This document shows, one piece after another, positions 1 through 1,680 of a DNA stretch of 1,680 bases. Origin of the DNA: Naegleria gruberi (Eukaryota); assembly GCA_000004985.1 (NCBI GenBank), contig GG739348.1, one strand, 5' to 3'. Each line of letters opens with the position of its first letter. Position 1 is the first letter of the stretch. The notes below the pieces were generated by a model. That model had not been told where the DNA came from, ran no database searches, and worked only from the letters and a program-made list of their open reading frames with translations. The position numbers and the translations under genes were made by a program.

Positions 1-520
1 GTAAAACAATGCTTTCATAGCTCGAGGCCCCTCCTTTTACACTAAAAAAAGAAATGACCTTCTCTGCCATCTCCTCATCCTCTATATCTTGTAAGAATCC
101 ATAGGCAAGATTGGCTTTGCATTTTACCAAAAGATCCATTACCCTCTCTCTATATGTTTCCAACCCAAATGCTTTTATCAATGAAACTAAACTCTCAGCA
201 TCCAAGTTATTGCCACTCGAGGAAACTCTCAGTAAATCTTTGGCTAGCTCGGTATTATTCAATTTAATGACATACTTGGTCACCAGGGTTTTTTTAAAAT
301 ATTTGTTTCGCAAAAACCTTGTAACAAAATCTGTAACTGTATCCAAAAGAGATGGATCTTGCTCGTACCGTGTCCACATATTTTCAAGTTCTTTCAAAGA
401 TTCTGTTTCTCCAATCTCCAGTGCCAATAAATGTTTGAAACGATTTGGACTAATTAAAATGCACGCACTGCTATACCACCTCGTTGCTCTTGCTCCTTCA
501 TTACCTGTATGTCCTTCGAA
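1..520 (-). CDS. Second exon of the same gene, continuing past the window edge. It encodes an unrecognised C-terminal region. The spliced protein reads ...AVSKSE|FEGHTGNEGARATRWYSSACILISPNRFKHLLALEIGETESLKELENMWTRYEQDPSLLDTVTDFVTRFLRNKYFKKTLVTKYVIKLNNTELAKDLLRVSSSGNNLDAESLVSLIKAFGLETYRERVMDLLVKCKANLAYGFLQDIEDEEMAEKVISFFSVKGGASSYESIVL...
   Basis: Seen: a minus-strand frame with codons 520-518, 517-515 and so on has no stop over 173 codons down to base 1. It has a balanced, protein-like composition with amphipathic, helix-like stretches. It is in phase with the upstream exon only if the 521-567 intron is removed. The supplied track missed it because it has no stop and no start inside the window. 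The plus-strand 138-aa ORF 111..527 is its antisense shadow. Confidence 0.55.
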
Positions 521-567
521 CTGTTAAAATTCTCAATAAATATATTGTTTAAACTTTTAAAACTTAC
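521..567 (-). other. Putative 47-nt phase-0 spliceosomal intron (GT...AG) of the minus-strand gene.
   Basis: Seen: the minus-strand sequence is GAG|GTAAGTTTTAAAAGTTTAAACAATATATTTATTGAGAATTTTAACAG|TTC. This gives a perfect GTAAGT donor, a T-rich tract and a CAG acceptor. Its length of 47 is not a multiple of 3. Removing it shifts from the oxygenase frame, which would otherwise hit TAA at 454-456, into a frame that is open for 173 further codons. That second frame has TAA (524-526) and TGA stops, but both lie inside the proposed intron. Donor and acceptor are both phase 0. Confidence 0.55.
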
Positions 568-1524
568 CTCGCTCTTTGAAACTGCAAGATTTTCCAATAT
601 ATTTTCTGGAATAATAATGTTTTTGGAGATTTTAAATCTTCTTTTGATTTCCTCATTTCCCTGCTCACCCACAACATGAGTGATGGCAAAACTTGGTTCT
701 GTCCAGAAATTATTATAACCACTTCCACCATCTTGTTGCTTTCTCATTATACCAAGCTTAATTCCAATACTGTTATATTTGGCATTGTATTGTTGGAGAA
801 GTTGCATTAGATTGCTATCTCTTCCTTTGAGGCAATCGTATTTCAATCCTTCTTCAGAATATTTGTGTTCCAAGAGGTAGCACAAGAATGGTGTTTCAGA
901 ATCCCAGTTTTCCACAATTGAATTCAAGTTTTCAAAATGTGCTGATCGATCTACAACTGTTGGCTTGATTCCAGAAGCATAACAAACATTATAAACTAGA
1001 CATAATCTGTATCCACTGGTCAACTTGGCCACCTTATGGTTACAATCACAATAAAAACTAAAGAAGAAAGGTTTAGATGAACCTTCTTTAGCAAACTCAT
1101 AAGTTTCCTCTGAATCAGCATGTTGAACAATAATTTCACCACCCGAATAAAGAGATGGCAACTGCACCACAAGAGTGGCAAACATTTTGTCTTCCTTTTC
1201 TGTATCTCTATGAAAATCGAAGTGTCCTCCTTCCTCATATAACAATAATTTGTACAAACTATTTCGAACAACAACACTCGAATGAATGCCAAGTCCAGGT
1301 TTCACTTGTTTCTCCACCAAATTATCTATATATTGCTTCCAATGTTGATTTGTAATTCTGAATTGTGAGGGAGACAATTGCCATGTTTTCCTCACTGTTT
1401 CATCATAAATTGTCTTATCACCCTGTCCAAAAGGAGCCTTTTCAAAATATTGAATAATTTCAAAAGCTTGATTCTTGGTAATAATTGGCAATCGGATTGG
1501 TTTATAAATCTTTGTATTAACATC
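568..1524 (-). CDS. Exon encoding a P4Hc/PHD-type 2-oxoglutarate/Fe(II)-dependent oxygenase domain. This is an internal or first-coding exon. The 5' boundary is unresolved, somewhere in 1491-1524. The 3' end is at the donor site at 568.
   Basis: Seen: an uninterrupted minus-strand frame runs from the in-frame TAA at 1527-1525 down to 568. The translation contains LYEEGGHFDFHRDTEKEDKMFATLVVQL, which fits the Y..G..F..H.D......R..T...YL strand-II pattern of prolyl-hydroxylase-like DSBH enzymes. The HRD His (H94) is the codon at 1210-1212 and the Asp (D96) is at 1204-1206. The translation also contains CDCNHKVAKLTSGYRLCLVYN, with the distal His (H152) at 1036-1038 and the 2OG-binding Arg (R162) at 1006-1008. 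The exon ends ...GCA GTT TCA AAG AGC GAG, immediately followed by GTAAGTTTT. There is no ATG between the upstream in-frame stop and the track's 'start' at 1489-1491, which is TTG. So the true N-terminus must come from an upstream exon or an acceptor inside 1492-1524. Codon usage (GGA, CCA, GAA, AAA, TTC) is coding-like. Confidence 0.7.
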
Positions 1525-1594
1525 TTAATTCCAATTATAATAATTAATTAATACTAAATTATAAATTATTTAAATATATGATTCCGTACTTTTA
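1525..1594. other. AT-rich non-coding spacer, either 5' flank or intron. It contains the 10-nt palindrome TAATTAATTA (1541-1550) and ends in a TTTTAG (1590-1595) acceptor-like motif on the plus strand.
   Basis: Seen: the segment is roughly 85% A+T. It has stops in the oxygenase frame (TAA at 1527-1525) and in the plus-strand acidic frame (TAA at 1571-1573). It has no coding-like periodicity. Confidence 0.5.
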
Positions 1595-1642
1595 GATGAT
1601 GATGATGAGGTAACTGTTGCTGCTGTCGATGATGATAATGAT
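1595..1642. repeat. Imperfect trinucleotide (GAT/ATG/TGA)n microsatellite. It has four GAT units plus GAG at 1595-1609, and a GAT GAT GAT AAT GAT cluster at 1628-1642.
   Basis: Seen directly in the sequence. It gives poly-Asp in one plus-strand frame, and poly-Ser or poly-His in the two open minus-strand frames. Confidence 0.7.
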
Positions 1643-1680
1643 GGCAATGAAGCCAAATCACAAAGTACTTCAATACCTGG
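1596..1680 (+). CDS. Possible plus-strand coding exon fragment, (D)DDDDEVTVAAVDDDNDGNEAKSQSTSIP..., following a TTTTAG acceptor and continuing off the window. The strand assignment is uncertain.
   Basis: Seen: the plus-strand frame with codons 1598-1600 and onward is open from 1574 to the window end and is preceded by TTTTAG|. It has no in-frame ATG. An ATG register starts at 1596 but terminates after 5 codons (ATG ATG ATG ATG AGG TAA). Two minus-strand frames are also open over the same low-complexity stretch, and one of them terminates with TAA at 1570-1572. So openness is not diagnostic here. Confidence 0.25.

What the first reader, a model, noticed from the sequence alone, without database searches (positions are those of the whole stretch)
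454..600. The track's 345-aa ORF is a read-through artefact: a 47-nt GTAAGTTT...TTTTAACAG intron joins the oxygenase exon to a hidden second coding frame
On the minus strand the oxygenase frame reaches a textbook donor at 568/567 (GAG|GTAAGTTTT). Forty-seven bases downstream, an acceptor (ATTTTAACAG|, ending at 521) opens onto a different frame. That frame is stop-free for 173 codons to the window edge. The intron length is not divisible by 3, both splice sites are phase 0, and both stops of the second frame (TAA at 524-526 and a TGA just upstream) fall inside the excised segment. Together these are hard to explain by chance. The consequence is that the real protein has a large C-terminal domain instead of ending '...KDIQVMKEQEQRGGIAVRAF*'. 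Retaining the intron would give an oxygenase-only isoform truncated 37 residues after the junction.
Basis: partly seen in the sequence, partly recalled or inferred. Interest (0 to 1): 0.6.

Follow-up and report, generated by a model that had tools for sequence, protein, structure and literature searches.

The report
Real 47-nt intron in Naegleria gene
The 345-codon reading frame is an artefact of reading through a genuine 47-base intron in a gene of the amoeba Naegleria gruberi; splicing joins the enzyme domain to the rest of a roughly 940-residue oxygenase, which is ordinary eukaryotic gene structure but shows that the reference gene model is truncated.

Summary
On the minus strand, GAG|GTAAGTTT (568/567) and TTTTAACAG| (521) bound a 47-nt segment. 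Removing it joins the oxygenase frame, in phase 0, to a 173-codon open frame.

The window is Naegleria gruberi-like DNA: 98% aa identity to XP_002669401.1 and 98.8% nt identity to a metagenome contig. The spliced product (...AVSKSE|FEGHTGNEGARATRWY...) aligns without a gap to single-ORF bacterial homologues and to an intron-less Willaertia gene. It restores residues G355, N356 and G358, which are invariant in 92 sequences.

A profile built only from bacterial homologues ranks 567..521 first of 101 candidate gene structures (325.8 bits, against 286.6 for read-through). Three diverged paralogue loci carry GTAAGT...AG introns of 51, 37 and 47 nt at the same codon boundary.

A second, weaker candidate intron (1589..1524, 66 nt) links an upstream exon, so the ORF's TTG start is also an artefact. 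The reference model begins at an internal Met (379..377) and lacks the catalytic domain.

The biology is ordinary: a short spliceosomal intron in an uncharacterised PHD/P4H-like 2OG-Fe(II) oxygenase. No transcript data could be consulted, and the retained-intron isoform is unsupported.

The parts
521..567 (-). Intron 2, the subject of the finding: a 47-nt GT-AG intron, GTAAGTTTTAAAAGTTTAAACAATATATTTATTGAGAATTTTAACAG, phase 0.
   Evidence: Sequence. GC 17.0% against 35-38% in the exons. It holds all three stops of the downstream frame. Its removal gives the best score of 101 candidate structures against a bacterial-only HMM. Introns at the same codon boundary occur in L001 (51 nt), L003 (37 nt) and L004 (47 nt).
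568..1523 (-). Exon B (956 nt, 318 full codons plus 2 nt). It encodes the 2OG-Fe(II) oxygenase catalytic domain and the first part of the middle domain. Catalytic residues: H135 (1212-1210), D137 (1206-1204), H193 (1038-1036) and the 2OG-binding R203 (1008-1006).
1..520 (-). Exon C (partial; runs off the window). It begins FEGHTGNEGARATRWYSSACILISP and continues into the helical C-terminal region.
   Evidence: 173 open codons. 98% identical to N. gruberi XP_002669401.1. The continuation to a stop is seen in L005, which is 98.8% nt identical. It aligns to bacterial homologues continuously from exon B.
494..508 (-). Codons for T354-G355-N356-E357-G358, the family's TGNxG motif, located 5-9 residues after the splice junction.
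   Evidence: G355, N356 and G358 are invariant, and T354 is at least 90% conserved, in the 92-sequence alignment A2.
454..567 (-). Read-through tail of the mechanical ORF (37 codons VSFKSL...VRAF plus TAA 456-454). It is the intron followed by exon C read out of frame, and is not coding as such.
   Evidence: Homologues do not align to it. The HMM alignment of the read-through product stops at HMM position 296 of about 745. The read-through tails of nine paralogue ORF calls share only the initial 'VS' encoded by GTAAGT.
1524..1589 (-). Intron 1 (candidate): 66 nt, GTACGGAATC...GGAATTAAG, phase 1, containing the in-frame stops TAA 1572-1570 and TAA 1527-1525.
   Evidence: Exon B has no in-frame ATG. 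The same frame is open upstream to the window edge. GC is 13.6%. Five GT..AG options keep the frame open, and the bacterial HMM does not discriminate among them. The boundaries are inferred and not comparatively supported, because L001 and L003 are continuous here.
1590..1680 (-). Exon A (partial): PGIEVLCDLASLPSLSSSTAATVTSSSSSK, then the first base of codon N31.
   Evidence: PGIEV aligns with the family motif PGLE[IV] that precedes a Ser-rich linker and YKPI.LPI in L001, L003, Willaertia and bacteria.
377..379 (-). Internal ATG (M397 of the 522-aa window product), where the N. gruberi reference model XP_002669401.1 (465 aa, MWTRYEQDPS...) begins.
   Evidence: Coordinates were read.
454..1491 (-). 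The mechanical 345-aa ORF (TTG start at 1491-1489). It is artefactual at both ends.
   Evidence: The TTG is an internal Leu codon of ...YKPIRLPIITK..., which aligns with YKPIALPIVSK in L001.

Best explanation
The window is nuclear DNA of Naegleria gruberi or a very close relative. On its minus strand it carries three exons of one gene: exon A (1680..1590), exon B (1523..568) and exon C (520..1, continuing beyond the window). A short canonical GT-AG spliceosomal intron of 47 nt (567..521, phase 0) interrupts the coding sequence inside the conserved middle domain. The spliceosome removes it and joins ...NLAVSKSE to FEGHTGNEGARATRWY....

The mature mRNA encodes a protein of roughly 940 aa, made of four parts. 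The first is an N-terminal PHD/P4H-like 2OG-Fe(II) dioxygenase domain with HxD...H and Arg intact. The second is an alpha/beta middle domain carrying the invariant TGNxG motif. The third is a long helical region. The fourth is a CxCxxC-containing C-terminal module ending in a basic PxKKKxK tail.

The 345-aa ORF arises because a mechanical ORF finder reads through the intron to the first in-frame TAA.

Shown here: the sequence anatomy, the origin, colinearity with intron-less homologues, and conservation of the intron position in paralogues. Inferred: actual splicing (no transcripts were examined), enzymatic activity, substrate, and the exact boundaries of the upstream intron.
For: (1) Anatomy. 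Donor GAG|GTAAGTTT and acceptor TTTTAACAG|; 47 nt; phase 0; three stops of the downstream frame lie inside the segment; 173 open codons follow. P is about 5e-7, with 0 of 20,000 shuffles open.

(2) Origin. Exon C is 98% identical to N. gruberi XP_002669401.1/NAEGRDRAFT_75668. Window positions 670..1 are 98.8% nt identical to contig L005. GC is 34.5% against 33% reported for N. gruberi, which averages 1.7 exons per gene (PMC8296547).

(3) Colinearity. The bacterial single-ORF proteins P0031, P0071 and P0111, whose genes are continuous in L006 and L007, read ...E[VI]xxxTGNxGAxxxxxY..A..I.WP across the junction. So does Willaertia KAL9657156.1, whose DNA is continuous at this site.

(4) G355, N356 and G358, just downstream of the junction, are invariant in 92 sequences.

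(5) An HMM built from 9 named bacterial homologues scores the 567..521 splice 325.8 bits, rank 1 of 101. Read-through scores 286.6, rank 82. The spliced alignment is gap-free over the junction and extends from HMM position 41 to 522, against 41 to 296 for read-through.

(6) Diverged paralogue loci have GTAAGT...AG introns at exactly the same codon boundary, with different lengths and unrelated sequence: L001 51 nt, L003 37 nt, L004 47 nt. Nine prokaryote-style ORF calls of paralogues all terminate in a 'VS...' read-through tail at that site.

(7) The intron is 17% GC against 35-38% in the exons.

(8) In the AF2 model of the Willaertia homologue (pLDDT 87.4), the junction lies inside strand 371-377. 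The next strand, 385-400, corresponds to exon C sequence, so exon B alone encodes an incomplete domain.
Against: No RNA-seq, EST or cDNA evidence could be consulted. A scan of JGI metagenome contigs found neither the spliced nor the unspliced junction, so that negative is uninformative.

No clear branch-point consensus was identified at a comfortable distance from the acceptor. The only YTRAY match, TTAAC, puts the branch A about 4 nt from the AG.

Between the window and the near-identical contig L005, 6 of 7 changed codons are nonsynonymous (and my own reading of the codons). This closest comparison therefore does not itself demonstrate purifying selection. The counts are too small to distinguish from neutrality, and they fall in the poorly conserved helical region.

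The intron is identical in the window and L005, so no intron-versus-exon rate contrast is available at close range.
Confidence: 0.93

Rival explanations
1. The intron is real, but it is often retained as a regulated event, producing a functional oxygenase-only isoform that ends ...GIAVRAF.
For: Intron retention is reported as the dominant form of alternative splicing across eukaryotes, including N. gruberi (PMC6142364). The catalytic HxD...H/R residues all lie in exon B.
Against: The retained-intron product would lack the invariant G355, N356 and G358, and the two beta-strands that complete the middle domain. Its 37-residue tail has no counterpart in any homologue. In paralogues the tail differs completely in length and sequence apart from the 'VS' dictated by GTAAGT, so it is not under selection. 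No transcript data were available.
Confidence: 0.05
2. The locus is a dead gene. The 47 nt is an insertion or frameshifting lesion that is not removed, and the downstream frame is a decaying remnant.
For: 6 of 7 codon differences between the window and the 98.8%-identical L005 are nonsynonymous. One paralogue locus (L004) shows a frameshift about 15 codons after its intron. The reference annotation does not join the two halves.
Against: The segment has consensus splice sites at both ends. Equivalent segments of 37, 47 and 51 nt sit at the identical codon boundary in paralogues that are only 45-54% identical, which independent lesions would not produce. The downstream frame stays open for 173 codons here and for 481 codons in L005 and P0121. 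It retains every invariant family residue and the C-terminal CxCxxC module.
Confidence: 0.03
3. Prokaryotic or viral DNA carrying two separate, slightly overlapping genes (an oxygenase and a downstream gene in another frame), or a programmed ribosomal frameshift.
For: The family is abundant in bacteria. A mechanical ORF track reports the 345-aa ORF.
Against: The nearest relatives are Naegleria and Willaertia, at 98% and 39% identity. In bacteria the protein is one continuous ORF of 739-769 aa. The oxygenase ORF lacks an ATG start and needs an upstream exon. A slippery site would not explain a 47-nt AT-rich block holding three stops. Neighbouring genes on the paralogue contig are eukaryotic in type, for example Ribosomal_L7Ae and ACBP. 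There is no Rfam match.
Confidence: 0.01

Closest known systems
Canonical short U2-type GT-AG spliceosomal introns of Naegleria gruberi nuclear genes
   Same: GT...AG termini, a GTAAGT donor, AT-rich interior, interruption of a protein-coding frame, and removal that restores colinearity with homologues. N. gruberi is reported to have 1.7 exons per gene.
   Different: At 47 nt it is well below the reported mean intron length of 203 bp. The paralogue introns at the same site are similarly short, at 37-51 nt. Splicing itself was not observed.
N. gruberi predicted protein XP_002669401.1 / EFC36657.1 / NAEGRDRAFT_75668 (UniProt D2W2Q0), 465 aa
   Same: 98% identical to window exon C from Met 379..377 onward. 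It is the same gene, or an allele or strain variant of it.
   Different: The model starts at an internal Met and omits 47 codons of exon C, the intron, and the whole dioxygenase part. No N. gruberi protein matching exon B was returned by the database search.
Willaertia magna hypothetical protein KAL9657156.1 (P0006), 789 aa
   Same: Full-length heterolobosean homologue, 39% identical over 86% of the query, with the same domain order and the same C-terminal basic PPKKKQK tail.
   Different: Its DNA has no intron at the junction site. Its only annotated intron is 50 nt after codon 7.
Bacterial ~720-770-aa proteins annotated '2OG-Fe(II) oxygenase' or 'YbiX-like' (e.g. Methylomarinum P0031, Neochlamydia P0071, cyanobacterial P0111)
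   Same: Same multi-domain architecture and the same invariant residues (HxD...H, R, TGNxG, CxCxxC); 28-35% identity over about 90% of the query.
   Different: They are single uninterrupted ORFs with no Ser-rich linker and no C-terminal basic tail. They are stand-alone genes next to transposases or toxin-antitoxin modules. Their function is uncharacterised.
PHD/P4H-type prolyl hydroxylases (P. putida PPHD 4iw3, human PHD2, Dictyostelium PHD 6t8m) and PKHD-type hydroxylases (PiuC 9qn0, Sbal_3634 3dkq)
   Different: Only 9-15% identity. Those enzymes are about 200-250 aa and lack the middle, helical and Cys modules. The Pfam PF13640 score for the window protein is just under the gathering threshold (26.2 against 27). 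The substrate is unknown.

Membership tests
U2-type GT-AG spliceosomal intron | GT at the 5' end and AG at the 3' end, with a donor close to the GTAAGT consensus | tested here: met
   GAG|GTAAGTTT ... TTTTAACAG|TTC. This is the only GTAAGT in the window.
U2-type GT-AG spliceosomal intron | Removal restores a continuous reading frame that is colinear with intron-less homologues | tested here: met
   Gap-free alignment across the junction to bacterial and Willaertia proteins. Best of 101 candidate structures against the bacterial HMM.
U2-type GT-AG spliceosomal intron | Position conserved in related genes while the intron's sequence and length drift | tested here: met
   L001 51 nt, L003 37 nt and L004 47 nt, all at the same phase-0 codon boundary before [IF]E[EG][HS]TGN.
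U2-type GT-AG spliceosomal intron | Host is a eukaryote with a spliceosome | tested here: met
   98% aa identity to N. gruberi XP_002669401.1. N. gruberi genes are reported to average 1.7 exons.
U2-type GT-AG spliceosomal intron | Branch-point motif and pyrimidine tract upstream of the acceptor | tested here: inconclusive
   By eye only. There is a T-rich stretch before AACAG, but the only YTRAY match (TTAAC) is about 4 nt from the AG. No Naegleria branch-point model was available.
U2-type GT-AG spliceosomal intron | Spliced junction observed in RNA | not testable with these tools
   No transcript collection is accessible. The JGI metagenome scan found neither the spliced nor the unspliced junction. 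RNA-seq PRJEB23822 exists.
2OG-Fe(II) oxygenase superfamily (PF13640, PHD/P4H-like) | HxD...H iron-binding triad and a basic 2OG-binding residue | tested here: met
   H135, D137, H193 and R203 are present in the window product and invariant in 92 sequences.
2OG-Fe(II) oxygenase superfamily (PF13640, PHD/P4H-like) | Profile match above the curated threshold | tested here: inconclusive
   PF13640 at E 1.6e-5, 26.2 bits against a cutoff of 27 for the window product. The Willaertia homologue passes at 28.6 bits.
2OG-Fe(II) oxygenase superfamily (PF13640, PHD/P4H-like) | Double-stranded beta-helix fold | tested here: met
2OG-Fe(II) oxygenase superfamily (PF13640, PHD/P4H-like) | 2OG-dependent hydroxylase activity and an identified substrate | not testable with these tools
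   No characterised member was found. The PDB sequence search gave nothing significant, and the NCBIfam hits are far below threshold.
Prokaryotic overlapping genes / programmed frameshift | Prokaryotic or viral origin, with two independently initiated ORFs or a slippery site | tested here: not met
   Eukaryotic origin. The bacterial orthologues are single ORFs. The frames are separated by a 47-nt block with three stops.

The most novel reading that the evidence does not exclude
The corrected gene belongs to an uncharacterised multi-domain protein family. Its parts are a PHD-like dioxygenase, an alpha/beta domain with an invariant TGNxG motif, a helical region and a CxCxxC module. On this reading the family has moved between bacteria (including the amoeba symbiont Neochlamydia, where it sits among mobile elements) and heterolobosean amoebae. 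It then expanded into several paralogues in Naegleria, acquired a C-terminal nuclear-localisation-like tail (PxKKKxK), and gained this intron after the split from Willaertia. That would make it a new nuclear oxygenase with an unknown protein or nucleic-acid substrate.
Probability: 0.25. Interest if true: 0.45.

Novelty: new member of a known kind. Interest (0 to 1): 0.22.

Why it matters
The practical consequences are for annotation.

(i) The 345-aa ORF should not be treated as a protein. The real product is about 940 aa.

(ii) The N. gruberi reference model XP_002669401.1 appears to be N-terminally truncated and to have lost its catalytic domain. Any domain census of Naegleria 2OG oxygenases therefore misses this gene.

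(iii) Prokaryote-style gene calling on metagenomes that contain amoebae systematically produces split proteins with '...E|VS...' tails. At least nine such entries sit in public protein collections.

Biologically it is a routine spliceosomal intron. It adds one clean example of an intron position shared by diverged Naegleria paralogues but absent from Willaertia and from bacteria.

Tried and rejected
- Exact-sequence look-ups of the 345-aa ORF and of XP_002669401.1 in the contig index found nothing. The N. gruberi reference locus could therefore not be read. The near-identical metagenome contig L005 was used instead.
The Willaertia homologue was modelled instead.
- JGI metagenome contigs were scanned for the spliced junction (TCAAAGAGCGAG|TTCGAAGGACAT) and then, as a control, for the unspliced donor. 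Both gave 0 hits, so the negative says nothing.
- A literature search for the locus tag gave 0 papers. One search string was rejected for syntax.
- The PDB sequence search with the family profile gave nothing significant (best E 0.037, unrelated).
- NCBIfam gave only sub-threshold PRK05467-type hits.
- PADLOC matched only the generic '2OG' CRISPR-associated model over the catalytic core, which is not evidence of a defence role.
- Rfam and tRNA scans of the window returned one sub-threshold snoRNA-like hit (E 0.58) and no tRNA. A self-splicing or RNA-gene explanation was rejected.
- The sigma-70 promoter and terminator scan gave only AT-rich noise, which is irrelevant for a eukaryote.
- The bacterial HMM could not discriminate among five possible boundaries for the upstream intron, so that intron stays a candidate.
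- ORF restoration alone was rejected as proof of the exact boundaries, because 100 GT..AG pairs achieve it.
Full report
**1. Observation**

Reading the minus strand, the long frame runs ...ENLAVSKSE. Its last codon, GAG, occupies 570-568 and is followed immediately by GTAAGTTT (567-560). Forty-seven bases later ATTTTAACAG ends at 521.

From 520 a different frame (TTC GAA GGA CAT ACA GGT AAT GAA GGA...) stays open for 173 codons to the window edge. The 47-nt block holds three stops of that frame: TAA 559-557, TGA 535-533 and TAA 526-524.

Read-through gives the 37-residue tail VSFKSL...GIAVRAF and TAA at 456-454. This is the 345-aa ORF in the mechanical list. Every coordinate in the finding is therefore right.

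Is it more than chance? A 173-codon open frame has probability about 5e-7 at this composition, and 0 of 20,000 shuffles produced one. Two caveats apply. A single GTAAGT is not unusual on its own. And 100 different GT..AG pairs would restore an open frame. The exact boundaries therefore have to be fixed by other evidence.

**2. Origin**

A protein search with the spliced product returned N. gruberi 'predicted protein' XP_002669401.1/NAEGRDRAFT_75668 at 98% identity over exon C. It also returned a 789-aa Willaertia magna protein at 39% identity over 86% of the query, and hundreds of bacterial proteins of about 720-770 aa covering about 90% of the query.

A metagenome contig (L005) is 98.8% identical at the nucleotide level to window 670..1, with an identical intron. 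It carries the rest of exon C to a stop (...PNKKKLKLEE*) with no further interruption.

The window's GC content (34.5%) matches the 33% reported for N. gruberi, whose genes average 1.7 exons (PMC8296547). The DNA is therefore nuclear DNA of N. gruberi or a close relative.

**3. Does the spliced protein match homologues across the junction?**

Yes. In alignment A1 the window's ...IIIPENILENLAVSKSE|FEGHTGNEGARATRWYSSACILISP lines up without a gap with three groups of sequences:
- Willaertia: ...KNLALDNEDFGEHTGNEGASFDRWYTSAALVIWP
- Methylomarinum: ...QQEVEGPTGNAGATIDRWYRRAAIVLWP
- Neochlamydia and a cyanobacterium, similarly.

The bacterial genes are single uninterrupted ORFs in their genomes. 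The Willaertia DNA is continuous at this site.

In the 92-sequence alignment A2, G355, N356 and G358 are invariant. They lie 5-8 residues after the junction at F350.

As an objective test, I built an HMM from nine named bacterial homologues only. I then scored the read-through ORF and all 100 ORF-restoring GT..AG splices against it. The 567..521 splice ranked first at 325.8 bits, and read-through ranked 82nd at 286.6 bits. The alignment of the spliced product passes the junction at maximal posterior probability and extends from HMM position 41 to 522. The read-through product stops aligning at position 296.

**4. Comparative evidence for the intron itself**

The top hits P0001-P0005, P0007, P0010, P0011 and P0013 are 45-54% identical to the query and 378-571 aa long. 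All are prokaryote-style ORF calls that end in a short tail beginning 'VS' right after the homologous E, D or T residue. V-S is what GTA-AGT encodes.

Reading three of their contigs confirms this:
- L001 has GAA|GTAAGTTC...CTCTAG|ATTGAAGAACATACAGGTAATGAAGGA (51 nt).
- L003 has GAA|GTAAGTGT...AAAAAG|ATTGAAGAAAGTACTGGAAATGCT (37 nt).
- L004 has GAT|GTAAGTGA...ATCAG|ATTGAACACACTGGTAATGAG (47 nt).

The intron sequences are unrelated, and none of the lengths is a multiple of three. Yet the boundary falls between the same two codons in each. Spliced, L001 and L003 give 940- and 959-aa proteins that are colinear with the family from end to end. L001 comes from the same sample as L005, and its contig neighbours are eukaryotic in type.

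The intron position is thus shared among diverged Naegleria-type paralogues. It is absent from Willaertia and from bacteria.

**5. Composition and structure**

The intron is 17.0% GC, and the flanking exons are 35-38%.

The junction-equivalent D375|F376 falls inside beta-strand 371-377. The long strand 385-400 (ASFDRWYTSAALVIWP) corresponds to exon C sequence. Both belong to the compact middle domain (residues about 241-400). A product ending at the intron would therefore lack part of a domain. This argues against a functional 'oxygenase-only' isoform, though nothing here tests that directly.

**6. What the gene encodes**

Pfam sees only 2OG-FeII_Oxy_3 (PF13640), at 26.2 bits against a cutoff of 27 in the window product and at 28.6 bits in Willaertia. 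The iron and 2OG ligands are present and invariant: H135, D137, H193 and R203, at window 1212-1210, 1206-1204, 1038-1036 and 1008-1006.

No solved structure is related by sequence. NCBIfam and PADLOC give only generic or sub-threshold matches. The bacterial members are stand-alone genes lying between transposases (Methylomarinum) or toxin-antitoxin modules (Neochlamydia).

The best functional statement is that this is a PHD/P4H-like 2OG-dependent hydroxylase of unknown substrate. The activity is inferred, not shown.

**7. The 5' side**

Exon B has no in-frame ATG. Its 'TTG start' is an internal Leu of YKPIRLPIITK, which aligns with YKPIALPIVSK in L001. The ATG at 1523-1521 is in another frame.

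The same frame as exon B is open from the window edge (PGIEVLCDLASLPSLSSS...SSSSSK) but is cut off by two TAA codons (1572-1570 and 1527-1525). A 66-nt GT..AG segment (1589..1524, GTACGG...AATTAAG, 13.6% GC, phase 1) removes both stops. It joins PGIEV, the family's PGLE[IV] motif, through a Ser-rich linker to NVNTKIYKPIRLPI.

The support is weaker here. Five boundary pairs keep the frame open, the bacterial HMM cannot choose among them, and the paralogues have no intron at this place. I rate this second intron at about 0.7.

**8. Annotation consequence**

XP_002669401.1 (465 aa) starts at MWTRYEQ, which is the internal ATG at window 379-377. It therefore omits 47 codons of exon C, the intron and the whole dioxygenase part. 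No N. gruberi protein matching exon B was returned by the search. The reference model therefore appears to be truncated.

**9. Rival explanations**

- Separate overlapping genes or a frameshift in a prokaryote or virus: excluded by the origin and by the single-ORF bacterial orthologues.
- Dead gene with an unspliced insertion: unlikely, given consensus splice sites, the same boundary in paralogues, and long intact frames that retain all invariant residues. I note, however, that 6 of 7 codon differences between the window and L005 are nonsynonymous. These counts are small and fall in the variable helical region.
- Regulated intron retention: possible in principle, since intron retention is common in eukaryotes including N. 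gruberi, but unsupported here.

**10. Limits**

No transcript evidence was available. The metagenome scan for the spliced junction and its unspliced control both returned nothing. No convincing branch-point motif was identified.

**11. Verdict**

The biology is ordinary: a short canonical spliceosomal intron in a Naegleria gene, misread by a mechanical ORF track. Its value lies in correcting the annotation of an uncharacterised, bacterial-type, multi-domain 2OG oxygenase. Confidence in the intron is about 0.93. Interest is low to moderate.

Noticed in passing
window 1524-1589 (minus strand): A second candidate intron: 66 nt, GTACGG...AATTAAG, 13.6% GC, phase 1. It contains both in-frame TAA stops that separate an upstream open frame (PGIEVL...SSSSSK) from exon B. 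Exon B has no ATG of its own, so the ORF's TTG start is an artefact too.
   Followed up: partly
window 377-379 (minus strand); XP_002669401.1: The N. gruberi reference protein model (465 aa) starts at this internal Met and lacks the entire dioxygenase domain. No N. gruberi protein matching exon B was found in the protein collection.
   Followed up: partly
P0002-P0005, P0007, P0010, P0011, P0013; L001 1910-1960, L003 4547-4583, L004 about 1130-1176: At least nine public metagenome-derived 'proteins' are the same kind of read-through artefact. Each ends in a tail beginning 'VS' (= GTAAGT) at the homologous intron. This suggests several paralogues or species of Naegleria-type amoebae in those samples.
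   Followed up: yes
L009 1501-3920 (Willaertia magna JBEGDK010000022.1): The Willaertia orthologue has no intron at the junction site. Its only annotated intron is 50 nt after codon 7 (GTCGAC...AACAG) and is not AT-rich, so it may be a gene-model device rather than a real intron.
   Followed up: partly
C-termini of P0012, P0121, P0006, L001 and L003 products (beyond the window): Heterolobosean members end in a basic PxKKKxK(x)E tail that resembles a nuclear localisation signal and is absent from the bacterial homologues. All members share an invariant CxCxxC motif about 90 residues from the C-terminus.
   Followed up: no
L006 5253-11061; L007 2028-2530 and 10060-10578: The bacterial homologues are stand-alone genes flanked by IS66/DDE transposases (Methylomarinum) or ParDE/YafQ toxin-antitoxin modules (Neochlamydia, an amoeba symbiont). 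This hints at mobility and possible bacteria-amoeba gene transfer.
   Followed up: no
L004 about 1190-1230: About 15 codons after its 47-nt intron, the paralogue in L004 switches frame: ...VERSYRS in one frame and VLVICPAELK in another. This is either a pseudogene or an assembly indel.
   Followed up: partly
window 670-1 versus L005 1-670: There are eight nucleotide differences and none in the intron. Six of the seven affected codons change the amino acid (G>D, T>I, R>K, S>A, E>Q, D>E) and one is silent. The helical region therefore looks fast-evolving or weakly constrained between close haplotypes.
   Followed up: partly
window 111-527 (plus strand): A 138-aa TTG-initiated ORF lies antisense to exon C and the intron. 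It has no support and is most likely a by-product of the coding strand opposite.
   Followed up: no
window 1590-1650 (minus strand): A serine/threonine-rich low-complexity linker (SLPSLSSSTAATVTSSSSSK) lies between the PGIEV motif and the catalytic domain. It is longer than in the paralogues and absent from bacteria.
   Followed up: no
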